The notes: generated by a model from the letters alone, not told the origin. A DNA stretch of 64,000 nucleotides from an uncultured virus (IMG/VR IMGVR_UViG_3300033149_004104) (IMGVR_UViG_3300033149_004104:1-64000); one strand, 5' to 3'; counted from the first letter of the stretch, positions 26,472 through 51,173 are shown. Translations and numbers: made by a program.

Positions 26472-27170
26472 ATGGGAGATTATACTATTAAAGAAGTACT
26501 TCAAATTACAGATAAATATTATCCAAATAGATTTACATATAAAGAACGTGATGTAGTAAAACGTATTGTTATAAAAGAAGTGAAAGAAGTACAACGACAT
26601 GATATTCCTGGAGGCCCGAGAGTATATACGAAATATGTTATTGAAAGCAAATCATGGCCACAGTATTATCCTTATTTTACTAGAACAGATAGCAGAGGTA
26701 GACGTAGACGCTATCAAAGAAGTGTAGCTCATTATTATGATGTAATATTCGAAACGGATAGATTGAGCTTAAATACTAAGAAATGGGTGGGTAGAGTTGG
26801 CAGTGGAAAAAAGTGGAATGCTAGACCGCCACAATCGCAAATAAAAAGTTTATATCCTGAAACAAGGGAAAAATTTAGAAGAAGGGCTAGAGGTAATCAA
26901 CAAGAATATAAGAGACTTGTAGAAAGACATAAAAGAAGTGCACCGTATCTTGATGTAGGCGATTATAATAGTAGAGTAAATGGAATTATGGGGGATTTTT
27001 GTTTTAGACAAGCTTGGGCATATTACACTCATGGCCATCTATTTGGAAGACAATATTATGGTAACGTACCTTCTTCAATTACAAATCCTAACGCTATTGT
27101 TTTTTTCGATAAACATCAATTAAATGTAATTGACCAACTTATGAGAAGAGGGATCTTAAAAGATGATTAA
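26472..27170 (+). CDS. Hypothetical basic late protein
   Basis: 232-aa ORF with C-terminal DFCFR...ITNP...DKH. Confidence 0.6.
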   Translation: MGDYTIKEVLQITDKYYPNRFTYKERDVVKRIVIKEVKEVQRHDIPGGPRVYTKYVIESKSWPQYYPYFTRTDSRGRRRRYQRSVAHYYDVIFETDRLSLNTKKWVGRVGSGKKWNARPPQSQIKSLYPETREKFRRRARGNQQEYKRLVERHKRSAPYLDVGDYNSRVNGIMGDFCFRQAWAYYTHGHLFGRQYYGNVPSSITNPNAIVFFDKHQLNVIDQLMRRGILKDD

Positions 27171-27675
27171 GATTATAAATTTTAAAGAAAAGATTTATGG
27201 AAATATGGCAATAGTTTTCCATAGAACTAGCGTTTCAGATTTAGTAAATAAAGTTTTTACAAGTGGATTTAAACCTGGTACAGGAGATAAATATGGAAGA
27301 GGATTTTATGCTACTTATGAACTTGAGTCACAAGAGCGACCAGAAATGAAGAAATATGGAACCTGGAAAAATGGAACTTGGAGAAATGGAGTCTGAAAAG
27401 ACGGAACCTGGAAAAAAGGAATCTGGAAAGATGGGATTTGGGAAGACGGAGCTTGGGAAGGCGGGCAATGGGAAAAAGGAGTTTGGAAAAAAGGTACCTG
27501 GGAAAATGGGATTTGGGAGTATGGAACTTGGGAAAATGGAGATTGGAAAGATGGAATTTGGGAAAGTGGGGTGTGGAAAGGTGGAAAGATATGGAACCCT
27601 CAAACAAAAAAATATCAGTATAGTGACAAAAACCCTTATGATTGCGAATGGAGCTTGAGTTATTATAAAAGATAA
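27163..27675 (+). pseudogene. Truncated ADP-ribosyltransferase-like N-terminus fused to GxWxx repeats, interrupted by one in-frame TGA
   Basis: FHRT...GFKPG..KYGRGFYAT; TGA at 27394-27396 occupies a Trp position; the same frame continues to KNPYDCEWSLSYYKR and stop at 27675. Confidence 0.7.
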
Positions 27676-27708
27676 TAATATTTATGACATAAGGAGGGAG
27701 AGTAAAAC

Positions 27709-29001
27709 GTGATTAAAATATTTAAAAACCTGAACCTTCTTGAAAAGAAAGATCACATTATAAGAAAAATGCCCAATTTGACTAGTGAGCAGAAGGAAGA
27801 ACTAATAAACTTTTTCAATAGACACCCAAATTATGAAAATAGGGTCGATTGGAATAAGTGGAGAACTTTAACATACGAAGATTTTAAAGACATTCTTGAA
27901 ATTGAATCCAAAACTCAAAGGAAGAAATCCGTTAAGACAAGAGGAATAAAAGGACTAAAAGAGGGTAAGGATTATATTCAATTGAAGAATTTGCCCGACG
28001 ATATACAAGGATATATTCCTTTGAATTACGAGGCATCAAAATTTATTGCTTCTAGATATGTAGGAGGCATTGAAGGAAAATGGTGTACTGCATATCAAAA
28101 AACCGATAAATATTGGGAAGAATATAAAAGCTACGGGGTAATTTTTATATATTTAATCAAAGACAATGAAAAATATGCAATAGCTGTTTATCTCGACAAT
28201 AAAACTTATGAAATTTATAATAAAGATGACGATAAAATTTCTTTTATAGAAGGCATTAATATTAAATCAGATATATTAAATGATCGAAATGTTTCTCTTT
28301 TTGAAAAAGTAAGAAAAGAAATCGGTTTTGAACATTGGATTACCAAAGCTGAAATATCAAAGGATGCTAAGTTTGAATATGGCGAATTTAGGCAAATAGT
28401 TTGGTTAGATGGGGCGTGGTATAAAGGGACTTGGTATAACGGAATTTGGAAAAATGGAATTTGGAAAAATGGAACTTGGGAAGATGGTTCTTGGAAGAGT
28501 GGAACTTGGAAGAGTGGAACTTGGAAGTTTGGAACTTGGGAAGATGGAATATGGGAAAATGGAAATTGGATAATGGGATTATGGGAAGATGGAATTTGGA
28601 AAGACGGAACTTGGAAAGATGGAACTTGGGAGGATGGAACATGGAAAAGTGGAATTTGGAACAAAGGGGGATGGACAAAAGGGATATGGGAAGACGGAAT
28701 ATGGAAAAATGGAATTTGGGGTGGAGGAACCTGGGAAAGTGGAATTTGGAAGGATGGATCTTGGATTAAGGGGACGTGGATTAATGGAACTTGGGAATTT
28801 GGAACTTGGTATAACGGAATTTGGAAAAACGGAACTTGGAAAGATGGAACTTGGATTGATGGGGAATGGAAAGACGGAATCTGGAAAGATGGAGTATGGA
28901 AAGGTGGAAAAATATGGGATCCTCAAATAGAAAAATATCAATATAGTGACAAAAACCCCTATGATTGTGAATGGAGCTTAAGTTATTACAAAGAACAATA
29001 G
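27709..29001 (+). CDS. GxWxx-repeat protein, family A
   Basis: N-domain KKDHIIRKMPNL...GKWCTAY; about 33 GxWxx units; C-tag KNPYDCEWSLSY. Confidence 0.85.
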   Translation: MIKIFKNLNLLEKKDHIIRKMPNLTSEQKEELINFFNRHPNYENRVDWNKWRTLTYEDFKDILEIESKTQRKKSVKTRGIKGLKEGKDYIQLKNLPDDIQGYIPLNYEASKFIASRYVGGIEGKWCTAYQKTDKYWEEYKSYGVIFIYLIKDNEKYAIAVYLDNKTYEIYNKDDDKISFIEGINIKSDILNDRNVSLFEKVRKEIGFEHWITKAEISKDAKFEYGEFRQIVWLDGAWYKGTWYNGIWKNGIWKNGTWEDGSWKSGTWKSGTWKFGTWEDGIWENGNWIMGLWEDGIWKDGTWKDGTWEDGTWKSGIWNKGGWTKGIWEDGIWKNGIWGGGTWESGIWKDGSWIKGTWINGTWEFGTWYNGIWKNGTWKDGTWIDGEWKDGIWKDGVWKGGKIWDPQIEKYQYSDKNPYDCEWSLSYYKEQ

Positions 29002-29033
29002 TATTTATATTATAAAGATGGTGGTTGAGGGGC

Positions 29034-30311
29034 ATGATCAAAATATTTAAAAATTTAAACTTACTTGAAAAAAAAGATCATATTATAAGAAAAATACCTA
29101 ATTTGACTAATGAGCAGAAGGAGGAGCTGATAAACTTTTTCGATAAACACCCAAATTACGAAAATAGAATTGATTGGAACAGGTGGAGGACTTTAACATA
29201 CGAAGATTTTAAGGGTATTCTTGAAATTGAATCAAAGACTCAGAAAAAAAAATCCGTTAAGATAAGTGGAATAAAAGGACTAAAAGAGGGTGAGGATTAT
29301 ATTCAACTGAAAGGGTTGCCCGATGATACGCAAGGATACATACCTCTAAATTACGAGGCTTCAAAATTTATTGCTTCTAGATATGTAGGGGGTATCGAGG
29401 GGAGATGGTGTACAGCATATCAAAAAACTAGGGAATATTGGGAAAAATATACAAGTGAGAATATAATCTTAATTTATTTGATTAATAATAATACAAAATA
29501 TGCAATAGCCGTTTATCCAAATAATAAAACTCATAAAATTTATGATAGTGATGACAACAAAATTTCTTATATTCCCGGTATTGATATTAACCGAGATATA
29601 TTAAATAAAAGAAACATTTCTATTTTTGAAAAAATAAGAAGAGAAGTTGAAGACTATAAGCATTGGATTCATAAAGCTGAAATATCAAGAGACGCTAGAT
29701 TCGAAATTGATAAAACAAATCAAGTAATTTGGTACAAAGGGACTTGGGTAGATGGGGTATGGGAAAGGGGAACTTGGATTAATGGGATTTGGTTTGATGG
29801 TTATTGGGCAAAAGGAGCTTGGAAGAATGGAATTTGGAGAGGGGGAACTTGGGAAAAAGGAACTTGGGAAGACGGAACCTGGGAAAAAGGAATTTGGTAT
29901 GGCGGGACTTGGAAAGATGGAATTTGGGAACATGGAACTTGGAAAGATGGAACTTGGAAATATGGAACCTGGAAAAATGGAGTTTGGGAAAGTGGAACTT
30001 GGAAAGATGGAGTCTGGAAAAGCGGAACCTGGAAAAATGGAGCCTGGGAAAGCGGAACTTGGAAAGATGGAACCTGGAAGCTTGGAATCTGGGAACTTGG
30101 GACTTGGATTAATGGAACCTGGGAGTCTGGAACTTGGGAATATGGAACCTGGAAAGATGGAGTCTGGGAAGGTGGGGATTGGGACGATGGAAATTGGGAA
30201 AAGGGAGTATGGAAAGGTGGAAGGATATGGAATCCAGAAACAGGAAAATATCAATATAGCGATAAGAACCCAAACGAATGTGAATGGAGCTTAAGTTATT
30301 ACAAAAGATAA
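29034..30311 (+). CDS. GxWxx-repeat protein, family A
   Basis: Paralog of 27709; ATG after GAGGGG RBS. Confidence 0.85.
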   Translation: MIKIFKNLNLLEKKDHIIRKIPNLTNEQKEELINFFDKHPNYENRIDWNRWRTLTYEDFKGILEIESKTQKKKSVKISGIKGLKEGEDYIQLKGLPDDTQGYIPLNYEASKFIASRYVGGIEGRWCTAYQKTREYWEKYTSENIILIYLINNNTKYAIAVYPNNKTHKIYDSDDNKISYIPGIDINRDILNKRNISIFEKIRREVEDYKHWIHKAEISRDARFEIDKTNQVIWYKGTWVDGVWERGTWINGIWFDGYWAKGAWKNGIWRGGTWEKGTWEDGTWEKGIWYGGTWKDGIWEHGTWKDGTWKYGTWKNGVWESGTWKDGVWKSGTWKNGAWESGTWKDGTWKLGIWELGTWINGTWESGTWEYGTWKDGVWEGGDWDDGNWEKGVWKGGRIWNPETGKYQYSDKNPNECEWSLSYYKR

Positions 30312-30330: not shown

Positions 30331-31473
30331 GTGATTAAAATATTTAAAAATCTGAACCTTCTTGAAAAAAAAGATCACATTATAAGAAAAATACCTAATT
30401 TGACTAGTGAACAGAAGGAGGAGCTAATAAATTTTTTCAATAAACACCCAAATTACGAGAACAGAATTGATTGGAATAAGTGGAAAACTTTAACATACGA
30501 AGATTTTAAAGACATTCTAGGGATTGAATCTAAGACTCAAAGGAAAAAATCCGTTAAGATAAGTGGAATAAAAGGATTAAAAGAGGGCGAGGATTATATT
30601 CAATTGAAGAATTTGCCTGACGATACGCAAGGATATATCCCTTTGAATTACGAGGCTTCAAAATTTATTGCTTCTAGATATGTAGGGGGTATCGAGGGGA
30701 AATGGTGTACAGCATACCAAAAAACTAGGGAATATTGGGAAGAATATAAAAGTGATAGGATAATTTTTATATATTTAATCAAAGACAATGAAAAATATGC
30801 AATAGCCGTTTATCCTGACAATAGAACTTATGAAGTTTATGATAAAAATGATAACAAAATTTCTTATATTCCCGGTATTGATATTAAACGAGATATATTA
30901 AATAAAAAAAATATTTCTATTTTTGAAAAAATAAAAAGAGAAGTTGAAGACTACAAGCATTGGATTTATAAAGTTAAAATATCAAAAGACGCTAGATTTG
31001 AAATTGATAAGACGAATCGGGTATTTTGGTATGAAGGGACTTGGATAGATGAGGTATGGGAAAGTGGAACCTGGAAAGATGGAACTTGGCTTGATGGTTA
31101 TTGGACAGATGGAACTTGGGAGAATGGAACCTGGGAAAATGGTACTTGGGAATATGGAATCTGGGAAAATGGGGTTTGGAAAGACGGAATTTGGAAAGAT
31201 GGAACTTGGTTGAAGGGGGTTTGGAAAGAGGGAATTTGGAAAAATGGAGTTTGGGAAAATGGAACTTGGGAAGATGGGACATGGGAGGATGGGTTTTGGG
31301 AAAATGGAATCTGGAAAGATGGAACTTGGAAAGATGGAACTTGGAAGGATGGAATCTGGAAAGACGGAGTGTGGAAAGGTGGAAAGATATGGAACCCTCA
31401 AACAAAAAAATATCAGTATAGTAACAAAAACCCCTATGATTGTGAATGGGGTTTAAGCTATTACAAGAAATAA
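30331..31473 (+). CDS. GxWxx-repeat protein, family A (mosaic)
   Basis: Paralog of 27709 and 29034. Confidence 0.85.
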   Translation: MIKIFKNLNLLEKKDHIIRKIPNLTSEQKEELINFFNKHPNYENRIDWNKWKTLTYEDFKDILGIESKTQRKKSVKISGIKGLKEGEDYIQLKNLPDDTQGYIPLNYEASKFIASRYVGGIEGKWCTAYQKTREYWEEYKSDRIIFIYLIKDNEKYAIAVYPDNRTYEVYDKNDNKISYIPGIDIKRDILNKKNISIFEKIKREVEDYKHWIYKVKISKDARFEIDKTNRVFWYEGTWIDEVWESGTWKDGTWLDGYWTDGTWENGTWENGTWEYGIWENGVWKDGIWKDGTWLKGVWKEGIWKNGVWENGTWEDGTWEDGFWENGIWKDGTWKDGTWKDGIWKDGVWKGGKIWNPQTKKYQYSNKNPYDCEWGLSYYKK

Positions 31474-31509
31474 TAATACTTATATTATAAAAATGGGGGG
31501 TTGAGGGGC

Positions 31510-32298
31510 ATGATCAAAATATTTAAAAATTTGAACCTTCTTGAAAAAAAAGATCACATTATAAGAAAAATGCCCAATTTAACTAGTGAACAGAAGGAAG
31601 AAATAATAAATTTTTTTAATAAGTGTCCAAATTACGAGAATGGAATTGATTGGAACGAGTGGGAAACTTTAATATATGAAGATTTTAAGAATATTCTTAA
31701 AATTGATCCCAGAATTCAAGGAAGGGAATTTGTTAAAATAAGCGGAATAAAAGAATTAAAGAGGGGTGATGATTATATTCAATTGAAGAAAGCCCCTAAT
31801 AATGTGCAAGAATACACCCCCTTAGATTATAAAGCGTCAAAATTTATTATTTCTGAAAAAGAAATCGGTTTTGAGCATTGGATTACCAAAGCTGAAATAT
31901 TAAAGGAGGCTAAATTTAAATTTGATGGGCCTACACAAATAATTTGGTTAAGTGGAACTTGGAAAAACGGAACTTGGAAAAACGGAACTTGGAAGGATGG
32001 GATTTGGGAAAACGGAACCTGGCAAACTGGAACTTGGGAAAATGGAACTTGGAAAAACGGAACTTGGGAAGACGGAATTTGGAAAAATGGAACTTGGAAA
32101 TTTGGAACTTGGAAAGGTGGGGTTTGGAATGATGGGATTTGGGTAATGGGAATTTGGAAAGATGGAAATTGGAAAGATGGAGCATGGAAAGGCGGGGAGA
32201 TATGGAATCTAGAAACAAGAAAATATGAATATAGCGATAAAAACCCATACGAATGTGAATGGAGTTTAAGTTATAGAAAGTTTCCATATCAATATTAA
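31510..32298 (+). CDS. GxWxx-repeat protein, family A, with internal deletion of about 86 aa
   Basis: YKASKFIISEKEIGFEHW joins segments about 86 aa apart in 27709; about 16 repeats. Confidence 0.75.
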   Translation: MIKIFKNLNLLEKKDHIIRKMPNLTSEQKEEIINFFNKCPNYENGIDWNEWETLIYEDFKNILKIDPRIQGREFVKISGIKELKRGDDYIQLKKAPNNVQEYTPLDYKASKFIISEKEIGFEHWITKAEILKEAKFKFDGPTQIIWLSGTWKNGTWKNGTWKDGIWENGTWQTGTWENGTWKNGTWEDGIWKNGTWKFGTWKGGVWNDGIWVMGIWKDGNWKDGAWKGGEIWNLETRKYEYSDKNPYECEWSLSYRKFPYQY

Positions 32299-32678: not shown

Positions 32679-33911
32679 ATGGTTAGAATATTCAAAAATT
32701 TAAATTTACTCGAAAAGAAAGATCATATTATAAGAAAAATGCCCAATTTGACTAGTGAACAAAAAGAAGAGCTGATAAATTTCTTTAGTAGGCATCCTAA
32801 CTATGAAAATAGAATTGATTGGAATAAGTGGAAAACTTTAACATACGAAGATTTTAAAGACATTCTAGGAATTGAATCAAAGACTCAAAGAAAGAAATCT
32901 GTTAAGATAAGTGGAATAAAAGGATTAAAAGAGGGCAAGGATTATATTCAACTGAAAGGGTTGCCTGACGATATGCAAGGATACATTCCTTTAAACTATG
33001 AGGCATCAAAATTTATTGCCTCTAAATATGTAGGAGGCATCAAAGGAAAATGGTGCACAGCATATCGAAAAAGTAAGGAATATTGGGAAAAATATACAAG
33101 TAAGAGTATAATCTTAATTTATTTGATTGGTAATAATACAAAATATGCAATATCCGTTTATCTAGATAATAGAACTTATGAAATTTATGATAGTAAGGAT
33201 AACAAAATTTCTTATATTCCCGGTATTGATATTAAACGAGATATATTAAATAAAAGAAATATTTTTATTTTTGAAAAAATAAGAAGAGAAGTTGAAGACT
33301 ACAAGCATTGGATTTATAAAGTTAAAATATTAAAAGGCGCTAGATTTGAAATTGATAAGACAAATCAAGTAATTTGGTATAAAGGAATTTGGATAGATGG
33401 AGTATGGGAAAGGGGAACTTGGGTTAATGGAGTTTGGCTTGATGGTTATTGGACAGATGGAACTTGGGAAGACGGAACTTGGAAAGAGGGGACTTGGGAA
33501 AAGGGAACCTGGAAAGACGGAACCTGGGAAAAAGGAATTTGGTATGGCGGGATTTGGAAAGATGGGATCTGGGAATTTGGAACTTGGAAAGATGGAACTT
33601 GGAAAGGGGGGACTTGGGAAAAGGGTACTTGGGAAGACGGAACTTGGGAAGATGGCTTCTGGGAAAACGGAACTTGGGAAGATGGGACTTGGCTGGAGGG
33701 GGTTTGGAAAGATGGAACTTGGGAAGACGGAACTTGGGAAGATGGAACTTGGAAATATGGAGTCTGGGAAGGTGGAGTTTGGAAAGATGGAATTTGGGAA
33801 AGTGGAGTGTGGGAAGGTGGAAAGATATGGAACCTGAAAACAAAAAAATATAAATATAGCGATAAGAACCCATACGAATGTGAATGGAGTTTGAGTTATT
33901 ACAAAAGATAA
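32679..33911 (+). CDS. GxWxx-repeat protein, family A
   Basis: Paralog; C-tag KNPYECEWSLSYYKR. Confidence 0.85.
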   Translation: MVRIFKNLNLLEKKDHIIRKMPNLTSEQKEELINFFSRHPNYENRIDWNKWKTLTYEDFKDILGIESKTQRKKSVKISGIKGLKEGKDYIQLKGLPDDMQGYIPLNYEASKFIASKYVGGIKGKWCTAYRKSKEYWEKYTSKSIILIYLIGNNTKYAISVYLDNRTYEIYDSKDNKISYIPGIDIKRDILNKRNIFIFEKIRREVEDYKHWIYKVKILKGARFEIDKTNQVIWYKGIWIDGVWERGTWVNGVWLDGYWTDGTWEDGTWKEGTWEKGTWKDGTWEKGIWYGGIWKDGIWEFGTWKDGTWKGGTWEKGTWEDGTWEDGFWENGTWEDGTWLEGVWKDGTWEDGTWEDGTWKYGVWEGGVWKDGIWESGVWEGGKIWNLKTKKYKYSDKNPYECEWSLSYYKR

Positions 33912-35132: not shown

Positions 35133-35183
35133 ATTGTAAATAATTAAAGTTTTATTTGCTTAATTACTAATATAATAGAACGA

Positions 35184-38468: not shown

Positions 38469-38518
38469 TTGTAAACCTATTACTAATATACTATAGACAT
38501 TAGAAATAGGTTAGCTTA

Positions 38519-43030: not shown

Positions 43031-43049
43031 CAAACAAGGGGATTGATTG

Positions 43050-44522
43050 ATGATCATTATAAGAAAATTAAATGAATATTTATCAGGATTTGATTATCGT
43101 CTTCCTGATGACCCCGAATTGATTTTATACGATTTCTATTTCTTAACTACTTACGGGAACGATATAGAAACAAATATGCCTGAGGCGGACTTCGCAATAA
43201 AGGAGGCTTCTGATAAAATTGTAGAGAGTCTTCATGCCCACATGTTAAAGGCAGTAAAATATGCGCTATGTAGTGAAATTAGACATATTTTCGATGGATT
43301 AAGAGATATTGAATCTCTTGAAGAATTAGCAAAAATGGATAAAAAAATAAATAGATTTGTTAATTCATATTCTAGAAATTATGAATTAAGTACTGGTATT
43401 GATCTTACGAATCGAGAACTTCGAGGTGTACTTACAAAAGAAACAGAATCAAGCAGACTAGCCTCTTATGAAGCTATTATTGAAACACAAAAAGAATTAA
43501 ATATGACAAATATGGAATTGGCTAAAATTTTTAGTAGCCTGTTTTTAGAATTAGATTGGAAACGTGATTACGGGGGAAGAGCTTGGGATATGATAGTTGA
43601 TGGATATAAAATGCTTCTGAAAGCTAAGAGGAAAAATGAAAAAATCATTGCCATCGATCACACTTATGATTTACAGCATAATACTGATACGGTTTTTAAT
43701 AAACTGCAGATATACTATAAAGATAGCTCTGGATATGGGTGGATTAGAAGAGCGTTAAATTGGAAAAAGGATGTAGAAGATATTCGTTTTTTTTATGAAA
43801 AAGTATCACCTCAACTACGGAGAATAGTAGCTTTTATAGCGTATAATGTGTACGGACTTACAATGGAAGATAAATCTTATCAGCATAGAGTTTGGACAGG
43901 CGGAATTTGGGCGGGGGGAACTTGGAATGATGGAATTTGGAAAAATGGGATTTGGAAAGATGGAACTTGGAATGACGGGGCTTGGATTAACGGAACCTGG
44001 GAGAAAGGAGCCTGGAGAAATGGAATTTGGAAAAATGGAATATGGCAAAATGGAACCTGGGAGCTTGGAACCTGGGAAAATGGTACTTGGGAATATGGAA
44101 TTTGGGAAAACGGTACTTGGAAATATGGAACTTGGTTTTACGGAACTTGGAAAAATGGAACTTGGGAAGACGGGGAATGGAAAGATGGGGTCTGGGAATA
44201 TGGAGTTTGGAAAAATGGAGTTTGGAAGTATGGAACTTGGTATAATGGAACCTGGGAAAACGGGACTCGAGAAAGTGGAACATGGCTAGAAGGGGTTTGG
44301 AAAAATGGAGTTTGGGAAGATGGTACTTGGTTGTATGGAGTTTGGAAAGATGGGGTTTGGAATGATGGAATCTGGGAAAATGGGATTTGGGAAGATGGAA
44401 TTTGGAGAAACGGAGCTTGGGAGGGTGGCAAAATATGGAATCCTAAAACAAGAGAATATGAATATAGTAATAAAAACCCATACAAGTGTGAATGGAGTTT
44501 AAGCTATAGAAAAGAGCGATAA
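43050..44522 (+). CDS. GxWxx-repeat protein, family B
   Basis: N-domain DPELILYDFYFL...YGGRAW...IDHTYDLQHNT..VFNK; repeats; C-tag KNPYKCEWSLSY. Confidence 0.85.
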   Translation: MIIIRKLNEYLSGFDYRLPDDPELILYDFYFLTTYGNDIETNMPEADFAIKEASDKIVESLHAHMLKAVKYALCSEIRHIFDGLRDIESLEELAKMDKKINRFVNSYSRNYELSTGIDLTNRELRGVLTKETESSRLASYEAIIETQKELNMTNMELAKIFSSLFLELDWKRDYGGRAWDMIVDGYKMLLKAKRKNEKIIAIDHTYDLQHNTDTVFNKLQIYYKDSSGYGWIRRALNWKKDVEDIRFFYEKVSPQLRRIVAFIAYNVYGLTMEDKSYQHRVWTGGIWAGGTWNDGIWKNGIWKDGTWNDGAWINGTWEKGAWRNGIWKNGIWQNGTWELGTWENGTWEYGIWENGTWKYGTWFYGTWKNGTWEDGEWKDGVWEYGVWKNGVWKYGTWYNGTWENGTRESGTWLEGVWKNGVWEDGTWLYGVWKDGVWNDGIWENGIWEDGIWRNGAWEGGKIWNPKTREYEYSNKNPYKCEWSLSYRKER

Positions 44523-44540: not shown

Positions 44541-46091
44541 ATGATTAAAATAATTCGAGTAAAGCCAAAAATAAAAGAAATCTTCTCAAACTTTGTATAC
44601 AGAATGCCTGATGATCCTGAGTTGATTTTATACGATTTTTATTTCTTAACTACTTACGGAAAAAATATAGAAACAAACATGCCCGAAGCAGATTTTGCGA
44701 TAAACGAAGCGGTCGAACAGATTATTGAAAATCTTCATGCACACATGTTAAAGGCTGTAAAATATGCTCTATGCGCTGAGATTCGTCATATTTTTGATTC
44801 TACAGCAGCTGAATCATTAAAGCAATTAGTTGAAAAAAACAAGAACATTGGAACCTTTATCAAGACATATTATAAAAAATATATCACTTTTACAGAAATA
44901 AGTAGAACACCGCTTGATTTCTTACTTGATGATAGATCGGGGGAGGCTGACAGATTAAGAAACGTTCTTTCTAAAGAGACAGATTCAAAAAGAAAAAGCT
45001 CATACAGGGCAGTTACAGAGACACAAAAAGATTTAAAGATAACAAACTCTGAACTGTCAAAAATATTTGAATACGTATTCTTAAAGCTTGTTTGGCAACC
45101 ACAATTCGGAGGCCCAGCATGGGCCGATATTGCCAAAGCTTATTATAGACTTCTAAGGGCTAAGAGGAAAAACGAAAAAATCATTGCCATTGACCATGCC
45201 TATGATTTACAGCATAACACCGATACGGTTTTTAATAAGTTGCAGATATACTATAAAGATGGTTATAGTTGGATTAAAGATGCTTTGGATTGGAAAAGAG
45301 ATGTAAAGGATATTCGATCTTTTTACAATAAAGTTTCTCCTCAATTAAGGAGAATAGTAGCCTTCATAGCATACAATGTATATGGGCTTACAATGGAGGG
45401 AGGAACTCCTCGTTCAGTTGATCAAGATAAAATCTGGACGAGGGGGCTCTGGAAGGGGGGAACCTGGACAGGAGAAATTTGGAAATATGGAATTTGGGAG
45501 AAAGGAACTTGGAAAGGCGGGACTTGGAAAGATGGAATTTGGAAAGACGGAACTTGGGAAGATGGAATTTGGAAAGACGGAATTTGGAAAAATGGAACTT
45601 GGAAAAATGGAACTTGGAAGGGTGGAACTTGGGAAAGTGGAAGTTGGAGAAATGGAATTTGGGAAGATGGGATTTGGAAAGAAGGTGATTGGGAAAATGG
45701 AACTTGGAAAGATGGATTCTGGATGTACGGATATTGGAAAAATGGTACCTGGAAGAGCGGAACTTGGAAAGATGGGATTTGGAAAAGTGGAACCTGGAAA
45801 AATGGAACTTGGAGATATGGAACTTGGAAAAGTGGAACTTGGAAAAATGGAACCTGGAGGGATGGGATCTGGGAAAATGGAACTTGGGAAGATGGAACTT
45901 GGTTTAAAGGGGTTTGGAAAAATGGAACTTGGAAAAATGGAACTTGGGAAAATGGATTTTGGAAAGATGGGGTTTGGGAAGGCGGAATATGGAAGAGTGG
46001 GGAGATATGGAATCCGGAGACAGATGAATATGAATATAGTGATAGAAATCCATACGAATGTGAATGGAGTTTAAGTTATAGAAAAGGATAA
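44541..46091 (+). CDS. GxWxx-repeat protein, family B
   Basis: Paralog of 43050. Confidence 0.85.
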   Translation: MIKIIRVKPKIKEIFSNFVYRMPDDPELILYDFYFLTTYGKNIETNMPEADFAINEAVEQIIENLHAHMLKAVKYALCAEIRHIFDSTAAESLKQLVEKNKNIGTFIKTYYKKYITFTEISRTPLDFLLDDRSGEADRLRNVLSKETDSKRKSSYRAVTETQKDLKITNSELSKIFEYVFLKLVWQPQFGGPAWADIAKAYYRLLRAKRKNEKIIAIDHAYDLQHNTDTVFNKLQIYYKDGYSWIKDALDWKRDVKDIRSFYNKVSPQLRRIVAFIAYNVYGLTMEGGTPRSVDQDKIWTRGLWKGGTWTGEIWKYGIWEKGTWKGGTWKDGIWKDGTWEDGIWKDGIWKNGTWKNGTWKGGTWESGSWRNGIWEDGIWKEGDWENGTWKDGFWMYGYWKNGTWKSGTWKDGIWKSGTWKNGTWRYGTWKSGTWKNGTWRDGIWENGTWEDGTWFKGVWKNGTWKNGTWENGFWKDGVWEGGIWKSGEIWNPETDEYEYSDRNPYECEWSLSYRKG

Positions 46092-46128: not shown

Positions 46129-47892
46129 ATGATTAAAATAGTTCGAGTAAAACCGAAAATAAAAGAAATTTTCTCAAACTTTGTATATAGGATGCCTAAA
46201 GATCCCGAGTTAATTCTGTACGATTTTTATTTTTTGACTACTTACGGGAAAGATATAGAAACAAATATGCCTGAGGCTGACTTTGCAATAAAGGAGGCTT
46301 CTGATGAAATTGTAGAATCCCTTCATACCCACATGCTAAAGGCAGTAAAATATGCCCTGTGTGCCGAGATTCGTCATATTTTTGATGCTATAGCAACCGA
46401 ATCATTGAAACGATTGGTTGGGGAAAACAAGAATATAGGGGCATTTATTAAAGTGTACTATAGAAAATATCTTGCCTTTATAGAAATAGGTAAAGTACCG
46501 CTTGACTTTTTACTCGATGATAGATCGGAGGAGGCTGGCAGATTAAGAAACGTTCTCTCTAAAGAAACTGATTTGAAAAGGAAAAGCTCATATAGAGCGA
46601 TTGCAGAAACGCAAAAAGAGTTGAAGATAACAAATTCGGAACTGTCAAAAATATTTGAATATTTATTCTTAAATCTTATTTGGTATTCACAATTCGGAGG
46701 TTTTGCATGGGCCGATATTGCCGAAGCTTATTATAGACTTTTAAAGGCTAAGAGGAAAAATGAAAAAATCATTGCTATAGATCATGCCTATGATTTGCAA
46801 CACAATACCGATATAGTTTTCAATAAATTACGGCTATATTACAAAGATGGTTATAGTTGGATTAAAAGAGCACTGGATTGGAAAAAGAATGTGAAGGATA
46901 TTCGATCTTTTTACAAAAAAGTTTCTCCTCAATTAAAGAGAATAGTAGCCTTCATAGCATACAATGTATACGGGCTTACAATGGAGGGGGGAACTCCTCG
47001 TTCAGTTGATCAAGATAGAATCCGGACAGGAAGATCCTGGGAGGGAGGAACCTGGACAGGGGGAATCTGGGAAAACGGGACTTGGGAAAAAGGAACCTGG
47101 GAAAACGGAACCTGGAAAAACGGAACTTGGAAACTTGGAATCTGGGAACTTGGGACTTGGGAAAATGGAACTTGGGAGTCTGGGACTTGGGAATATGGAA
47201 CCTGGAAAAATGGAGTCTGGAAAGACGGAGATTGGGAAGATGGAATTTGGAAGGGAGGAATTTGGGAATATGGAACTTGGATGAGTGGAGTCTGGAAATT
47301 TGGAACTTGGAAAGACGGAACATGGGAAAATGGGGTTTGGGAAAAAGGAATTTGGGAAAAAGGAACTTGGAAAAGTGGAGCTTGGAAGAACGGGGTTTGG
47401 AAAAATGGAACTTGGAAAGATGGAAGATGGGAAGATGGAATCTGGAAAGATGGAACTTGGGAAGACGGGGTTTGGAAAAATGGAACTTGGGAAAATGGGA
47501 CTTGGGAAAATGGAATTTGGTTAGAAGGGATCTGGAAAAATGGAACTTGGAAAAACGGAACTTGGGAATATGGATTCTGGAAAAATGGGGTTTGGAAAGA
47601 TGGAACTTGGGAAGATGGAACATGGGGAGAGGGGGTCTGGAAAGAAGGAATTTGGAAGGGAGGAATTTGGGAATACGGAACTTGGAATAATGGAATTTGG
47701 AAATTCGGAACCTGGAATAATGGAATTTGGAATAATGGGATTTGGGAAGATGGAGTGTGGAAAGATGGGGTTTGGAAAGATGGAGCATGGAAAGGTGGGG
47801 AAATATGGAATCCAAAGACAAATGAATATGAATATAGTAATAAAAACCCATACGAATGTGAGTGGGGTTTAAGTTATAGAAAAGAGCAATAA
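46129..47892 (+). CDS. GxWxx-repeat protein, family B
   Basis: Paralog; about 50 repeats. Confidence 0.85.
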   Translation: MIKIVRVKPKIKEIFSNFVYRMPKDPELILYDFYFLTTYGKDIETNMPEADFAIKEASDEIVESLHTHMLKAVKYALCAEIRHIFDAIATESLKRLVGENKNIGAFIKVYYRKYLAFIEIGKVPLDFLLDDRSEEAGRLRNVLSKETDLKRKSSYRAIAETQKELKITNSELSKIFEYLFLNLIWYSQFGGFAWADIAEAYYRLLKAKRKNEKIIAIDHAYDLQHNTDIVFNKLRLYYKDGYSWIKRALDWKKNVKDIRSFYKKVSPQLKRIVAFIAYNVYGLTMEGGTPRSVDQDRIRTGRSWEGGTWTGGIWENGTWEKGTWENGTWKNGTWKLGIWELGTWENGTWESGTWEYGTWKNGVWKDGDWEDGIWKGGIWEYGTWMSGVWKFGTWKDGTWENGVWEKGIWEKGTWKSGAWKNGVWKNGTWKDGRWEDGIWKDGTWEDGVWKNGTWENGTWENGIWLEGIWKNGTWKNGTWEYGFWKNGVWKDGTWEDGTWGEGVWKEGIWKGGIWEYGTWNNGIWKFGTWNNGIWNNGIWEDGVWKDGVWKDGAWKGGEIWNPKTNEYEYSNKNPYECEWGLSYRKEQ

Positions 47893-47910
47893 AATAAGGA
47901 GCTATCAGCA

Positions 47911-49701
47911 ATGATTAAAATAATTCAAGTAAAATCAAAAATGAAAGAAATTTTCTCAAATTTTGTATACAGGATGCCCAAAGATCCTGAGTTAATTTTG
48001 TACGATTTTTATTTCTTGACTACTTACGGGAACGATATAGAAACAAATATGCCTGAGGCTGATTTTGCAATAAAAGAGGCTTCTGATGAAATTGTTGAAA
48101 ATCTTCATGCACACATGCTAAAGGCAGTAAAATATGCCCTGTGTGCCGAGATTCGTCATATTTTTGATGCTACAGCAATTGAATCATTAAAACAATTGGT
48201 TGAGAAAAACAAGAACATTGGGGCTTTTATTAAAATGTACTATAAAAAATATCTCACCTTTACAGATGTAGGTAAGGCCCCACTTGATTTTTTACTTGAT
48301 GATAGATCGGGCGAGGCTGACAGATTAAGAAATGTTCTCTCTAAAGAAACCGATTTAAGAAGAAAATGCTCATACAGAGCAGTTACAGAGACACAAAAAG
48401 AGTTGAGGATAACAAACTCTGAACTGTCAAAAATATTTGAATACCTATTTTTGAATCTTGTCTGGCAATCACAATTCGGTGGTTCAGCATGGGCTGATAT
48501 TGCCAAATCTTATTATATGCTTTTAAAAGCCAAGAGGAAAAATGAAAAAATCATCGCTATTGATCATGCTTACGATTTGCAACATAATACCGATACGGTT
48601 TTCAATAAATTACAGTTATATTATAAAGACGGTTATAGTTGGATTAGAAATGCTTTAGATTGGAAAAGGGATGTAGATGATATTCGTTCTTTTTATGAAA
48701 AAGTTTCCCCCCAGCTAAGGAGAATAGTGGCATTTATAGCATACAATGTATATGGGATTACGATGGAGGGGTGGCTTTCCCATTCAGTTGATCAAGATAA
48801 AATTTGGACAGGGGGGTCCTGGAAAGGAGGAACTTGGACAGGAGGGACTTGGGAAAATGGGACATGGGAAAAAGGAATTTGGGAAAACGGTATTTGGGCG
48901 GGTGGAACTTGGGTAAGTGGGGCCTGGAAAGATGGAGTTTGGGAAAGTGGAACTTGGAAATTCGGAACTTGGACGGATGGGACTTGGGAAAATGGAACTT
49001 GGGAAAATGGGATTTGGGAATATGGAACTTGGAAAGATGGAACTTGGATATATGGAATTTGGAAAAACGGAACTTGGTTATTTGGAACTTGGTATGACGG
49101 GATTTGGAAAAAGGGGGTCTGGATATATGGAACTTGGAAAAATGGAACTTGGGAAGATGGAACTTGGAAAAATGGAACCTGGAAAGATGGAACTTGGAGA
49201 AATGGAGTCTGGAAAGATGGAACCTGGAAAAATGGAGTCTGGGAACTTGGAACCTGGAAAGATGGAGTTTGGGAAAGTGGAATTTGGAAATATGGAACTT
49301 GGAAGCTTGGAATCTGGGAACTTGGGACTTGGGAAAATGGAATTTGGGAAGATGGGGATTGGGAAGATGGAACCTGGAAAAATGGAATTTGGAAAGGTGG
49401 GGATTGGGAAGATGGAACCTGGAAAGACGGGATCTGGGAACTTGGAACTTGGAAAGATGGAGTTTGGAAAAGTGGAACTTGGGAGGATGGAGTTTGGAAA
49501 AGTGGAACTTGGGAAAATGGAGCCTGGACAATGGGGACTTGGGAAGATGGGATCTGGGAAAATGGAACTTGGAAAGAAGGAACCTGGAAAGACGGGATAT
49601 GGAAAGGTGGGGGGATATGGAATCCAGAAACAAAAGAATATGAATATAGTAATAAAAACCCATACGAGTGTGAGTGGAGTTTAAGCTATAGAAAGAGATA
49701 A
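47911..49701 (+). CDS. GxWxx-repeat protein, family B
   Basis: Paralog; longest array (more than 50 units). Confidence 0.85.
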   Translation: MIKIIQVKSKMKEIFSNFVYRMPKDPELILYDFYFLTTYGNDIETNMPEADFAIKEASDEIVENLHAHMLKAVKYALCAEIRHIFDATAIESLKQLVEKNKNIGAFIKMYYKKYLTFTDVGKAPLDFLLDDRSGEADRLRNVLSKETDLRRKCSYRAVTETQKELRITNSELSKIFEYLFLNLVWQSQFGGSAWADIAKSYYMLLKAKRKNEKIIAIDHAYDLQHNTDTVFNKLQLYYKDGYSWIRNALDWKRDVDDIRSFYEKVSPQLRRIVAFIAYNVYGITMEGWLSHSVDQDKIWTGGSWKGGTWTGGTWENGTWEKGIWENGIWAGGTWVSGAWKDGVWESGTWKFGTWTDGTWENGTWENGIWEYGTWKDGTWIYGIWKNGTWLFGTWYDGIWKKGVWIYGTWKNGTWEDGTWKNGTWKDGTWRNGVWKDGTWKNGVWELGTWKDGVWESGIWKYGTWKLGIWELGTWENGIWEDGDWEDGTWKNGIWKGGDWEDGTWKDGIWELGTWKDGVWKSGTWEDGVWKSGTWENGAWTMGTWEDGIWENGTWKEGTWKDGIWKGGGIWNPETKEYEYSNKNPYECEWSLSYRKR

Positions 49702-49739
49702 CAAAATAATAAAATTATAGAAAAAAGGGGTTGCCAGCA

Positions 49740-51173
49740 ATGATTAAAATAATTCGAGTAAAACCAAAAATAAAAGAAATTTTCTCAAATTTTGTATACA
49801 GGATGCCTGATGATCCTGAGTTAATTCTGTATGATTTCTATTTCTTGACTACTTATGGGAAAGATATAGAAACAAACATGCCTGAGGCTGATTTTGCGAT
49901 AAACGAAGCGGTCGAACAGATTATTGAAAATCTTCATACCCACATGTTGAAGGCAGTAAAATATGCCTTGTGTGCCGAGATTCGTCATATTTTTGATGCT
50001 ACAGCAACCGAATCATTAAAACAATTAGTTGAAAAAAATAAGAACATTAGAACCTTTATCAAGACATATTATAAAAAATATATCACTTTTACAGAAATAA
50101 GTAGAACACCGCTTGACTTTTTACTCGATGATAGATCGGGCGGGGCTGATAGATTAAGAAACGTTCTTTCTAAAGAAACAGATTCAAAAAGAAAAAGCTC
50201 ATACAGGGCAATTACAGAGACACAAAAAGAGTTAAAGATAACAAACTTGGAACTGTCAAAAATATTTGAATACCTATTTTTGAATCTTGTCTGGCAATCA
50301 CAATTCGGTGGTTCAGCATGGGCTGATATTGCTAAATCTTATTACATGCTTTTAAAAGCCAAAAGGAAAAATGAAAAAATCATTGCCATTGATCATGCCT
50401 ATGATTTGCAGCATAATACTGATACGGTTTTTAATAAGTTGCAGATATACTATAAAGATGGTTATAGTTGGATTAGAGATGCTTTGGATTGGAAAAGGGA
50501 TGTAGAAGATATTCGATTTTTTTACAATAAAGTATCGCCTCAACTACGGAGAATAGTAGCTTTTATAGCGTACAATGTATATGGGATTACGATGGAGGAT
50601 AAACTTTATCAACATGGAGTTTGGACAGGGGGAGCTTGGAAAGGTGGAATTTGGACAGGAGGGACTTGGAAAAAAGGTACTTGGATATATGGAACATGGG
50701 AAAATGGTATTTGGGAAGACGGAACTTGGGAAAGTGGAACTTGGAAAAACGGAACTTGGAAAAACGGAACTTGGAAATTCGGAACTTGGGTAGACGGAAC
50801 TTGGAAAAGAGGTACTTGGGAAAACGGGGTTTGGCAAAATGGAACATGGAAAGATGGAACTTGGATATATGGAATTTGGAAAAGTGGAATTTGGAAAAAT
50901 GGATTCTGGGAGGACGGAATTTGGGAACTTGGAACTTGGGAAAATGGAGATTGGAAGAACGGAACTTGGAGGGATGGGATTTGGAAAGATGGAATTTGGA
51001 AAAATGGAATATGGCAAAATGGAACCTGGGAAAAAGGAGTTTGGAAAGATGGAGTTTGGAAAGATGGAATTTGGAAAAACGGCAAAATATGGAACTCAGA
51101 GACAAGAGAATATGAATATAGTAATAAAAACCCATACGAGTGTGAGTGGAGTTTAAGTTATGGTAAAAAATAA
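49740..51173 (+). CDS. GxWxx-repeat protein, family B (mosaic)
   Basis: Paralog with segments matching 44541, 47911 and 43050. Confidence 0.85.
   Translation: MIKIIRVKPKIKEIFSNFVYRMPDDPELILYDFYFLTTYGKDIETNMPEADFAINEAVEQIIENLHTHMLKAVKYALCAEIRHIFDATATESLKQLVEKNKNIRTFIKTYYKKYITFTEISRTPLDFLLDDRSGGADRLRNVLSKETDSKRKSSYRAITETQKELKITNLELSKIFEYLFLNLVWQSQFGGSAWADIAKSYYMLLKAKRKNEKIIAIDHAYDLQHNTDTVFNKLQIYYKDGYSWIRDALDWKRDVEDIRFFYNKVSPQLRRIVAFIAYNVYGITMEDKLYQHGVWTGGAWKGGIWTGGTWKKGTWIYGTWENGIWEDGTWESGTWKNGTWKNGTWKFGTWVDGTWKRGTWENGVWQNGTWKDGTWIYGIWKSGIWKNGFWEDGIWELGTWENGDWKNGTWRDGIWKDGIWKNGIWQNGTWEKGVWKDGVWKDGIWKNGKIWNSETREYEYSNKNPYECEWSLSYGKK

What the first reader, a model, noticed from the sequence alone, without database searches (positions are those of the whole stretch)
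27163..51173. Modular 13-gene system: interchangeable N-terminal domains on a Trp-rich GxWxx solenoid with an invariant C-terminal tag
Seen: 13 genes, about 17 kb in total, in two clusters within the late region. Each has roughly 16 to more than 50 strict G-x-W-x-x units and ends GG.IWNP.T..Y.YS.KNPY[ED]CEW[SG]LSY. Four unrelated N-termini use this chassis: an ADP-ribosyltransferase-like fragment (27163), family A with a GKWCTAY motif (6 copies), a PLPEP/LEKGDKI type (36299) and family B with a DHxYDLQHN motif (5 copies). The x positions vary freely while G and W are almost invariant. Known: pentapeptide repeats generally form beta-solenoids; the classical A(D/N)Lxx family includes DNA mimics. 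I do not recognise this G/W type as a characterised family. Inference: a polymorphic, probably virion-packaged effector or adhesin repertoire with a variable-length, variable-surface rod and a common cap or docking tag.
Basis: partly seen in the sequence, partly recalled or inferred. Interest (0 to 1): 0.88.

Follow-up and report, generated by a model that had tools for sequence, protein, structure and literature searches.

The report
Phage tryptophan-solenoid modular protein repertoire
An uncultured large phage devotes about an eighth of its genome to thirteen related genes that join enzyme-like front domains to a rod built from five-residue tryptophan repeats, an uncatalogued protein module that is widespread in phages and also occurs on predatory bacteria.

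Summary
Thirteen + strand genes (16.5 kb of a 135.6 kb myophage record) carry 15-54 in-register G-x-W-x-x units (426 units, 410 strict) and one conserved C-terminal motif. One gene is broken by a TGA at a Trp position and one has lost part of its N-domain.

The x positions are not free: T/I/V, then K/E, then D/N/G. No Pfam, PHROG or NCBIfam model names the repeat.

A profile search finds 1,282 clusters. AlphaFold gives a right-handed beta-solenoid with one short strand per unit, and the tag reads best as its C-cap.

N-domains A, B and a third family (truncated in gene 27163) are widespread on their own. Elsewhere they carry LRR, DUF285, ankyrin or SH3/MIB repeats, so the solenoid is a swappable binding arm.

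All 13 genes lie in three units headed by a motif that also precedes the capsid, sheath and tube genes.

Most likely these are late-made, possibly virion-carried effectors aimed by the arm. Packaging is untested, and external fibres or unpackaged proteins remain open.

This scan met the repeat before in other phage genomes. New here: small lipoproteins with the same module in Bdellovibrionales genomes.

The parts
27163..27675 (+). P0: remnant gene. It has 65 aa of N-domain family P, then 15 GxWxx units and the tag, and is broken by TGA at 27394-27396 (a Trp position)
   Evidence: full-length relatives of the N-part
27709..29001 (+). A1: N-domain A (GKWCTAY), N-cap, 35 units, tag
29025..30311 (+). 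A2: N-domain A, 33 units, tag (the start homologous to its paralogs is the ATG at 29034)
30331..31473 (+). A3: N-domain A, 24 units, tag; folded (model m089199546ddd)
31501..32298 (+). A4: N-domain A with an internal deletion of about 87 aa (no GKWCTAY), 17 units, tag with a 6-aa extension
32679..33911 (+). A5: N-domain A, 30 units, tag
33945..35132 (+). A6: N-domain A, 27 units, tag
36299..37276 (+). C: 120-aa N-part (MPLPEP..., DFISRC...QRLAVCYSQW), N-cap, 35 units, tag
43047..44522 (+). B1: N-domain B (IDHTYDLQHN), 36 units, tag
44541..46091 (+). B2: N-domain B, 38 units, tag
46129..47892 (+). B3: N-domain B, 51 units, tag
47911..49701 (+). B4: N-domain B, 54 units, tag
49731..51173 (+). 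B5: N-domain B, 31 units, tag (homologous start at 49740); folded (model m17ab2052a327)
25631..25641 (+). Promoter-like motif ATACTAATATA heading the unit 25652-35132 (two unknown genes, P0, A1-A6)
   Evidence: no + strand terminator-like site inside the unit
35164..35174 (+). Promoter-like motif TTACTAATATA heading the unit 35184-38468 that holds gene C
38480..38490 (+). Promoter-like motif TTACTAATATA heading the unit 38519-52566 that holds B1-B5 and the phosphatase-like gene 51223

Best explanation
Each gene encodes a two-part protein. The C-terminal part is a self-contained module. It has an N-cap (W-[IL]-x-x-A-x-[IV]-x-x-D-[AS]-x-[FY]-E ... [IV]-W), then 15-54 GxWxx units, then a C-cap (the 'tag'). 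It folds into a thin right-handed beta-solenoid with one short strand (G-x-W) and one two-residue turn per unit.

Gly and Trp lie on the same face of each strand and most likely form the core. T/I/V, K/E and D/N/G make the variable surface. It is best seen as a Trp/Gly variant of the pentapeptide-repeat type of solenoid.

This module is a swappable, rigid binding arm. The N-domains (A, B, P and the small C type) look enzyme-like, with invariant polar residues, and are the working ends. Paralogs differ in arm length and charge and so would address different targets.

The genes are made late, together with the structural proteins. Most likely the proteins are loaded into the particle and delivered to the next host, as T4 does with Alt and its internal proteins, and the arm places the N-domain on a host component.

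Shown: the repeat, the caps, the modular exchange, purifying selection and the shared promoter-like motif.
Inferred: the core packing, the binding role, the enzymatic nature of the N-domains, late expression, packaging and delivery.
For: Repeat and caps. The N-cap and C-cap are conserved in unrelated phages. Among the tag-class representatives, 17 of 24 are short proteins of 118-155 aa that consist of the module alone.

Fold: model B5 has mean pLDDT 82.6, with 74-88 over residues 330-400 and a DSSP pattern of EEE-- per unit. Its best low-rmsd matches are right-handed solenoids:
- bactofilin 2n3d, Z 8.0, rmsd 2.3 A, 95 aligned
- TibA 4q1q, Z 7.3, rmsd 2.6
- pentapeptide proteins 2j8k, Z 6.5, rmsd 3.7, 174 model residues against 181 chain residues
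- also 3pss, 6fls, 2g0y and 2bm4
- the SV2 luminal pentapeptide domain, Z 4.4-4.8, 95 against 99 residues
Left-handed helices fit only at rmsd about 11. GxFxx-rich relatives touch Pentapeptide_4 and LD_SV2; P0041 scores 6.7e-13, 49.3 bits against a cut-off of 29.

Swappable arm:
- N-domain A has 40 non-self homologs: 5 with GxWxx, 9 of 45 scanned with DUF285, 3 with LRR_4, 1 with Ank.
- N-domain B has 83 non-self homologs: 15 with GxWxx, 5 of 78 scanned with SH3_15, 2 with MIB_HERC2.
- N-domain P has 22 relatives: 20 with InlJ-like LRR, 1 with 38 GxWxx units and the same tag.

Functional genes: omega is 0.08-0.20 in N-domains over 20 paralog pairs and 0.10-0.28 in tags. dS is 0.46-2.1.

Enzyme-like N-domains: B has invariant E80, D218, H219, H225 and N226. 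P has invariant H20, R21, T22, Y44 and Y49.

Late expression: TTACTAATATA occurs 25 times at up to 1 mismatch, against 6.3 +/- 2.4 expected, and 0 of 100 shuffles reach 25. It precedes the capsid, sheath and tube genes and heads the three units that hold all 13 genes.

Virion link: in 7 of 14 other phage loci examined, GxWxx genes sit beside portal, head-closure, adaptor or terminase genes. Families A, B and P all have a variable leader that ends in hydrophobic-x-Glu just before the conserved domain. T4 internal proteins are diverse defence-countering proteins that share only a capsid-targeting sequence (PMC3012670, passages read).
Against: - No proteomic or expression data exist; no RNA holder was listed.
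- No S77, S78 or phrog_207 prohead protease was found in the record, although nothing rang anywhere for phrog_207. The record is about 82% complete.
- Hydrophobic-x-Glu is a weak motif found near the start of many ORFs of this genome, and it may simply be the first residues of the domains.
- None of the N-domains matches any enzyme family. N-domain B gives only weak helical-bundle fold matches (Z 4.3 or less).
- In 4 of 14 other loci the genes lie among DNA-metabolism genes, and in 1 beside an endolysin.
- In Bdellovibrionales the module is on secreted lipoproteins, which fits an outward-facing adhesin at least as well.
- Solenoid matches are middling (Z 8.2 or less). The A3 model of the same repeat was poor (pLDDT 30-69) and there resembled MORN and Lpt sheets.
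- The number of units per turn was inferred from residue spans only.
Confidence: 0.4

Rival explanations
1. They are external virion fibres or decorations. The N-domains anchor to the capsid or tail, and the solenoid is a projecting rod of variable length and surface that sticks to hosts, particles or mucus. In other words, a multi-adhesin repertoire.
For: - The genes share a late promoter-like motif with the structural genes and start just after the capsid gene.
- A conserved N-part with an exchangeable C-part is the usual layout of receptor-binding proteins (established knowledge).
- The alternative partners, InlJ-like LRR and BspA-like DUF285, are typical surface-adhesin repeats.
- The solenoid resembles the autotransporter adhesins TibA and Ag43 and phage tailspike helices.
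- Bdellovibrionales use the module on lipoproteins, that is, outside the cytoplasm.
Against: - No PHROG or Pfam link of any N-domain to tail, baseplate or decoration families.
- The invariant residues of N-domains B and P are polar and catalytic-looking.
- The genes are not beside the baseplate and fibre genes, which lie at 62-80 kb.
- SH3, MIB-HERC2 and ankyrin partners are more typical of intracellular binding.
- Stand-alone 118-155 aa forms have no anchor domain.
Confidence: 0.25
2. They are unpackaged intracellular proteins: enzymes or binders that act in the infected cell, in host takeover or counter-defence. They diversified by duplication like the ankyrin, LRR and MORN gene expansions of large viruses.
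For: - Enzyme-like N-domains.
- Generic protein-binding partner repeats.
- In 4 of 14 other loci the genes sit among replication and recombination genes.
- In the T4-like Pseudomonas phage PspYZU05 the single member lies among small non-structural genes.
- A phosphatase-like gene and a P-loop gene share the B unit.
Against: - The promoter-like motif is shared with structural genes.
- Head and connector neighbourhoods occur in 7 of 14 other loci.
- Late synthesis is an odd time for host takeover unless the proteins are carried to the next cell (inference).
Confidence: 0.2
3. They are DNA mimics like the classical pentapeptide-repeat proteins Qnr, MfpA and AlbG, blocking host DNA-binding enzymes.
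For: Five-residue period and weak fold similarity to Qnr, MfpA, EfsQnr and AlbG (Z 5.6-6.1).
Against: - The repeat regions are not uniformly acidic. Net charge runs from -18 to +7 and pI from 4.1 to 9.4.
- No match to the Pentapeptide models for the window proteins.
- The module is also used on secreted lipoproteins.
Confidence: 0.04
4. It is an assembly artefact or decaying repeat DNA without function.
For: - Short-read assemblers struggle with repeats.
- One gene carries a stop and one a deletion.
- Contigs of run X1 break inside the arrays.
Against: - Three further contigs show identical arrays.
- Paralogs are 78-87% identical, so they can be resolved.
- Twelve frames are open, with omega 0.08-0.28 in N-domains and tags at dS 0.46-2.1.
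Confidence: 0.02

Closest known systems
Pentapeptide repeat proteins (Rfr fold; Pfam Pentapeptide PF00805, Pentapeptide_4 PF13599, SV2 luminal domain PF23894; MfpA, Qnr, Np275/276)
   Same: - Strict five-residue period.
- A small residue two positions before a large hydrophobic one.
- One short strand plus a two-residue turn per unit in the model.
- A right-handed solenoid, with residue spans that fit about 20 residues per turn.
- GxFxx-rich relatives bridge to the Pfam models.
   Different: - Gly/Trp replace Ala/(Leu, Phe).
- None of the window proteins reaches any Pfam pentapeptide model.
- It has its own N-cap and C-cap.
- It is not uniformly acidic.
- Fold scores are only middling, and bactofilin and TibA fit better.
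MORN repeats (the source of the database label 'phosphatidylinositol 4-phosphate 5-kinase-like' on Pseudomonas phage PspYZU05 gp54)
   Same: They share the G-x-W-x-x-G core. The low-confidence A3 model resembled MORN sheets (Z 5.1-6.3).
   Different: - The period is 5, not about 23.
- No MORN Pfam hit.
- The better model has one strand per five residues, a solenoid and not hairpins.
T4 internal proteins IPI-III and Alt (capsid-targeted cargo ejected with the DNA)
   Same: - Diverse, paralog-rich late proteins with short N-terminal leaders ending in hydrophobic-x-Glu.
- One N-domain family with an ART-like motif (recalled resemblance).
- T4 internal proteins are described as diverse counter-defence proteins that share only the targeting sequence (PMC3012670).
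   Different: - This phage is not T4-like (capsid relatives).
- No S77 protease was found.
- The proteins are much larger.
- Packaging is untested.
Repeat-domain gene expansions and modular receptor-binding proteins of large viruses (ankyrin, LRR, MORN, FNIP families; multi-tailspike phages)
   Same: Tandem paralog arrays, with a conserved part combined with exchangeable repeat or binding domains.
   Different: The repeat type is new, the conserved parts are unannotated domains, and no link to the tail was found.

Membership tests
Pentapeptide repeat family (Rfr fold) | Tandem five-residue repeats | tested here: met
   426 units in register, 15-54 per gene
Pentapeptide repeat family (Rfr fold) | Match to the curated Pfam models (PF00805, PF13599, PF13576, PF01469) at the gathering score | tested here: not met
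   0 of 6 window proteins matched at E up to 1. Of 100 relatives, only sub-threshold Pentapeptide_4 hits were found, plus one LD_SV2 hit above its cut-off (P0041)
Pentapeptide repeat family (Rfr fold) | Right-handed quadrilateral beta-helix with four repeats per coil | tested here: inconclusive
   The model is a right-handed solenoid. It matches PRP structures at Z 5.6-6.5 with near 1:1 residue spans, but bactofilin and TibA score higher.
MORN repeat | Repeat of about 23 residues, Y-x-G-x-W-x-x-G-x-x-x-G-x-G (recalled consensus), forming beta-hairpins | tested here: not met
   The period is 5. There is no Pfam MORN hit. The better model has one strand per unit. The MORN-like fold rows come from the low-confidence model only
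T4-type capsid-targeted internal proteins | Short N-terminal targeting leader removed at (L/I)-x-E by the prohead protease (recalled) | tested here: inconclusive
   Leaders ending in hydrophobic-x-Glu are conserved in families A, B and P. The motif is common among the ORFs of this genome
T4-type capsid-targeted internal proteins | A gp21-type (S77) prohead protease in the same genome | tested here: not met
   No S77, S78 or phrog_207 match in the record at E up to 1. The record is about 82% complete, and phrog_207 rang nowhere in the controls
T4-type capsid-targeted internal proteins | Presence inside the mature head | not testable with these tools
   Needs virion proteomics
ADP-ribosyltransferase (claimed for gene 27163) | Sequence membership in an ART family and the complete H-Y-E or R-S-E catalytic set | tested here: not met
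   No Pfam hit for the fragment or for 22 full-length relatives. No PDB sequence relative was found. The fragment keeps only the first 65 aa of a domain of about 200 aa. The H-x-T and G-x-G-F-Y resemblance is recalled, not tested
Phage receptor-binding proteins / tail fibres | An N-terminal anchor related to known fibre or spike anchors, with the gene beside the baseplate genes | tested here: not met
   No tail-category PHROG for any N-domain. The genes lie between the head and tail-sheath modules, and the baseplate and large fibre-like ORFs lie at 62-80 kb
Bacterial polymorphic toxin systems | N-terminal trafficking part, C-terminal toxin and an adjacent immunity gene | tested here: not met
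   The order is reversed: the variable repeat is C-terminal. No small gene follows each paralog, and intergenic gaps are 18-50 nt

The most novel reading that the evidence does not exclude
Phages of many lineages share a combinatorial kit. It has a handful of unannotated enzyme-like 'warhead' domains (A, B, P and others) and interchangeable 'aiming' repeats (the Trp solenoid, Cys-ladder LRR, BspA-like, SH3/MIB). The proteins are made late, packed into the head behind a short leader, and injected to disarm host defences. In this reading the GxWxx solenoid is a fast-evolving, antibody-like binder scaffold whose length and surface are tuned paralog by paralog. Predatory bacteria have borrowed the same scaffold for surface lipoproteins.
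Probability: 0.2. Interest if true: 0.85.

Novelty: new variant of a known kind. Interest (0 to 1): 0.62.

Why it matters
The repeat is a large protein family. A profile search found 1,282 clusters at 50% identity. No curated library names it, and the few database labels are misleading ('PIP5K-like'). I found no description in six literature searches.

If the solenoid is a binder scaffold with a Trp/Gly core, it is a new solution to pentapeptide-solenoid packing and a compact natural scaffold of tunable length.

The paired finding matters for phage-host conflict. Three unannotated N-domains recombine with at least five kinds of binding repeats. That points to a widespread modular effector system in uncultured phages whose targets are unknown.

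The link to lipoproteins of Bdellovibrionales suggests a shared tool of phages and predatory bacteria.

Tried and rejected
- Genetic code 4 for the TGA in gene 27163: rejected, because TGA ends 9 of 71 ORFs and Trp is TGG throughout.
- Rheinheimera Barba phage 'pentapeptide' hits (115 of 125 records): a different repeat (NTGNx), matched by composition only.
- Super-period of 2, 3 or 4 units in the variable positions: none. All autocorrelations at lags 1-10 had magnitude 0.14 or less.
- Foldseek against the PDB: no match at E 0.001 or better for either model.
- VIA-align on the A3 model covered only the poorly modelled repeat.
- N-domain B as a di-metal helical bundle (ExxH at 80-83, DxxH at 222-225): only NrdB at Z 3.0 and weak Foldseek rows for PolF and desaturase. 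It is left as a lead.
- The Atlas look-ups gave only viral unnamed clusters. They also gave weak rows (TM about 0.2) linking the N-part of gene C to prohead-protease clusters.
- The NCBIfam scan returned no hit for 9 of the 13 proteins scanned, and for the other four only weak hits far below the curated cut-offs.
- Prohead protease searches (S77, S78, phrog_207) and a lenient PHROG scan of 22 neighbouring ORFs gave nothing useful.
- Sequencing runs: one DNA holder (X1, 23% of words), and no RNA holder listed. Its short contigs (about 200-450 nt) break in the arrays, and its five joints, four of them with 28 or fewer letters on the shorter side, settle nothing about copy number.
- Complex prediction, meant to test whether the tag makes dimers, was not available.
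- A tag-only pattern scan of 185,579 species genomes found no relative.
- dN/dS of the repeat's variable positions (0.19-1.30, median 0.77 of 19 defined pairs) is not taken as evidence of positive selection. Units were paired by register and may not be orthologous.
- Literature: six searches found no description of this repeat. Subscription journals are not covered.

Full report
**What the window is.** The window is bases 1-64000 of a linear viral record of 135,563 bases, judged about 82% complete. G+C is about 30%. All 71 ORFs of 60 aa or more that I kept lie on the + strand.

PHROG and Pfam scans identify these genes:
- a major head protein (23380-24819)
- a tail sheath (55540-57117)
- two tube genes, a tape measure and a DnaB-like helicase
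- two RNA ligases and a polynucleotide kinase

The capsid protein has only distant relatives (27% identity or less) among 50,697 phage records. TGA, TAG and TAA are all used as stops.

**The observation.** Thirteen genes carry the repeat and the tag. Walking back in fives from the tag gives 426 units, 15 to 54 per gene. Of these, 410 are strict G-x-W.

Residues at each of the five unit positions:

| Position | Residues | Count of 426 |
|---|---|---|
| 1 | Gly | 413 |
| 2 | Thr 207, Ile 108, Val 60 | 375 |
| 3 | Trp | 423 |
| 4 | Lys 178, Glu 148 | 326 |
| 5 | mostly Asp 135, Asn 103, Gly 43 | 281 |

So the 'x' positions are restricted. Simulated sequence gives no such run: 0 in 50 simulations, against 21 runs in the window.

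The last 58 residues align with 24 invariant columns. A profile of them finds exactly 13 full copies in the whole record.

Three other viral contigs reproduce the arrays with 0-1 mismatch and no indel. Paralogs share only 78-87% of their DNA. An assembly artefact is therefore unlikely.

Two genes are damaged. Gene 27163 has TGA in a Trp position. A4 has lost about 87 residues of its N-domain, including GKWCTAY.

**The genes are kept by selection.** Among 20 paralog pairs, Nei-Gojobori omega is 0.08-0.20 in the N-domains. It is 0.10-0.28 in the tags, for the 16 pairs with a defined dS. dS is 0.46-2.1, so the duplicates are old. The variable repeat positions give omega 0.19-1.30, but units were paired by register only. 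I read this as relaxed constraint, not proven positive selection.

**What the repeat is.** No Pfam, PHROG or NCBIfam model matches the window proteins. A profile of the last 58 residues, run against 1.84 billion representatives, finds 1,282 clusters at E 0.001 or better and 477 at 1e-10 or better.

The best 150 show alternative C-terminal ends:

| C-terminal class | Count of 150 |
|---|---|
| the tag seen here (2 are the window's own; 17 are proteins of only 118-155 aa) | 24 |
| a related P-x-E-Y-F type | 42 |
| a DSPDKW type | 13 |
| IGCK type | 3 |
| GKPENA type | 1 |
| unclassified | 67 |

A conserved stretch before the first unit (W-[IL]-x-x-A ... D-[AS]-x-[FY]-E ... [IV]-W) recurs in unrelated phages. 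The module therefore has its own N-cap and C-cap and can stand alone.

A few relatives rich in GxFxx touch Pentapeptide_4 and the SV2 luminal pentapeptide domain. The only clear member among cultured phages is gp54 of the T4-like Pseudomonas phage PspYZU05. It is labelled 'phosphatidylinositol 4-phosphate 5-kinase-like', a MORN look-alike label. The many Rheinheimera phage hits are a different repeat.

**Fold.** The model of B5 has mean pLDDT 82.6. Its N-domain is a confident all-helical fold. The repeat reaches pLDDT 74-88 over residues 330-400. DSSP gives three strand residues (G-x-W) and two turn residues per unit.

VIA-align against 48,161 chains matches the repeat to right-handed solenoids:

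| Structure | Z | rmsd (A) | Notes |
|---|---|---|---|
| bactofilin 2n3d | 8.0 | 2.3 | 95 aligned |
| TibA 4q1q | 7.3 | 2.6 | |
| Ag43 7kob | 7.2 | 4.1 | |
| Np275/276 2j8k | 6.5 | 3.7 | 174 model residues against 181 |
| Qnr, MfpA, AlbG and other pentapeptide proteins | 5.6-6.1 | | |

Left-handed helices reach similar Z only at rmsd about 11. The SV2 luminal domain aligns 95 model residues to 99 of its own.

These near 1:1 spans with 20-residue-per-turn structures suggest four units per turn.

Gly and Trp are two positions apart in a strand, so they face the same side. Given their invariance, I infer that they form the core. The volumes of Trp plus Gly are about those of Phe plus Ala (recalled residue volumes).

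The A3 model was poor in the repeat (pLDDT 30-69) and there resembled MORN and Lpt sheets. I give it little weight. Repeat-region charge differs widely between paralogs, from net -18 to +7. That argues against a common DNA-mimic role and for diversified surfaces.

**The N-domains.**
- *N-domain A (about 230 aa).* It has 40 homologs outside this phage. Five carry GxWxx. Others carry DUF285 (9 of 45 scanned), LRR_4 (3) or ankyrin (1).
- *N-domain B (about 290 aa).* It has 83 homologs outside this phage. Fifteen carry GxWxx. Others carry SH3_15 (5 of 78) or MIB_HERC2 (2). It matches PHROG 20946 of unknown function and four unnamed viral proteins in BFVD.
- *N-domain P.* The 65-aa N-part of gene 27163 is the start of a third family of about 200 aa. 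Twenty-two full-length relatives share 71-84% identity over it. Twenty of them end in repeats that match the Cys-ladder LRR of internalin J (E 8e-13). One has 38 GxWxx units and the same tag.

None of the three has a Pfam family or a PDB sequence relative. Their invariant residues are largely polar: B has E80, D218, H219, H225 and N226; P has H20, R21, T22, Y44 and Y49. They look more like enzymes than anchors. The ART label for P rests on a recalled motif resemblance only.

The solenoid thus occupies the slot that elsewhere holds classical binding repeats.

**Expression context.** TTACTAATATA occurs 25 times at up to one mismatch, against 6.3 +/- 2.4 expected. Exact or near-exact copies sit 4-140 bases before these genes:
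- the capsid gene
- the sheath gene
- both tube genes
- a portal-sized gene

Three copies (25631, 35164, 38480) head the three gene strings that contain all 13 genes. A strong terminator-like hairpin follows the capsid gene, and none lies on the + strand inside 25.6-44 kb. I infer late co-expression with structural genes. This is not shown.

**Context elsewhere.** I examined 14 of the 66 viral loci, chosen because they hold several or large GxWxx genes:
- 7 place the genes beside portal, head-closure, adaptor, terminase or sheath-stabiliser genes
- 4 place them among DNA-metabolism genes
- 1 places them beside an endolysin
- 2 are uninformative

Tandem arrays recur: five copies in L020, seven in L055, and three each in L012, L031 and L039.

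Families A, B and P all begin with a variable leader that ends in hydrophobic-x-Glu just before the conserved domain. This recalls the T4 capsid-targeting leader. T4 internal proteins are described as diverse counter-defence proteins that share only that leader (PMC3012670, passages read).

Here the motif is too simple to carry weight, and no prohead protease was recognised.

Earlier notes of this scan reached the same 'head cargo' reading on T4-like phages. They are leads, not support.

**Beyond phages.** A scan of one genome for each of 185,579 species found 34 loci:
- *Bdellovibrionales.* Eleven loci lie in nine assemblies. There the module sits on small proteins with lipoprotein signal peptides. 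They often form tandem arrays and have a Cys-containing N-cap and a GKPANA end.
- *Myxococcota.* One genome has 1,100-aa secreted proteins with GIWEN runs.
- *DPANN and CPR bins.* Several hits look like mis-binned phage contigs. L076 equals viral locus L045 in length and protein.

The Atlas neighbours were all viral. So the module is mainly viral, but it is also used outside the cytoplasm by predatory bacteria. This supports a binding or spacer role and keeps the external-fibre rival alive.

**Verdict.** The finding is real. It concerns an uncatalogued Trp/Gly pentapeptide solenoid with its own caps, used as an exchangeable arm on at least three unannotated phage N-domains and expanded to 13 genes here.

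What the proteins do and where they act is unresolved. I rank the readings as follows:
- late-made, virion-carried effectors: 0.4
- external fibres: 0.25
- unpackaged intracellular proteins: 0.2

Noticed in passing
L069-L102, especially L075 (1-6255), L071, L077, L079, L089: GxWxx modules occur in cellular genome assemblies. Nine Bdellovibrionales MAGs, some chromosome-level, carry tandem arrays of small lipoproteins. Each has a signal peptide plus lipobox, an N-cap with two Cys, 11-38 units and a GKPANA end. One Myxococcota MAG has 1,100-aa secreted proteins with GIWEN runs.
   Followed up: partly
window 23231, 25631, 35164, 38480, 52591, 54756, 55494, 57123, 57752 and others: The motif TTACTAATATA is enriched fourfold and sits just upstream of the capsid, sheath and tube genes and other + strand genes. 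It is a likely late promoter of this phage. Genome-wide, 20 of 21 core matches are on the + strand, between 9 and 85 kb.
   Followed up: partly
window 7511-7525: A run of 15 G follows 9 A near the 3' end of ORF 7034-7537, just upstream of ORF 7551-7730. It may be a slippage-prone tract or a sequencing problem.
   Followed up: no
window 227-898 and 967-1764: Two tandem Dam-like (D12 class) adenine methyltransferase genes have identical 40-base upstream stretches, which points to a recent duplication.
   Followed up: no
window 1791-2777, 4941-5864, 5878-7008: An RNA repair set: an Rnl2-like ligase, a polynucleotide kinase-phosphatase and an Rnl1-like ligase, as in T4's answer to tRNA-cleaving defences.
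   Followed up: no
window 51223-52566: A 447-aa protein with an N-terminal dual-specificity phosphatase-like domain (CDKN3, DSPc, Tc-R-P; E down to 1e-14) directly follows B5 in the same putative unit.
   Followed up: no
window 41106-42659 and 42677-43030: A P-loop protein (PHROG 1250, Walker A GRGGIGKS) and a DUF6717 protein sit immediately upstream of the B array.
   Followed up: no
window 53960-54196: A 78-aa ORF starts MIKIFSKYEKLKE, the same kind of leader as families A, B and P0, but it has no repeat.
   Followed up: no
window 36299-36440 (N-part of gene C): The motif DFISRC...QRLAVCYSQW is one I recall from the N-termini of phage prohead proteases. The Atlas structure rows pointed weakly (TM about 0.2) to Peptidase_S78/DUF3721 clusters. 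No Pfam hit was found.
   Followed up: partly
L076 versus L045: A 95,161-base contig filed in a Candidatus Shapirobacteria MAG has the same length as the contig behind viral locus L045, and its 517-aa GxWxx ORF starts with the same 50 residues. It is probably a phage contig binned with a CPR genome.
   Followed up: no
L020 (1963-9381): A T4-like phage carries five tandem GxWxx genes. Head-closure and late-sigma-factor genes lie upstream, and DNA-end-protector and portal genes lie downstream. All five start MILNF[EK]QFELF.
   Followed up: partly
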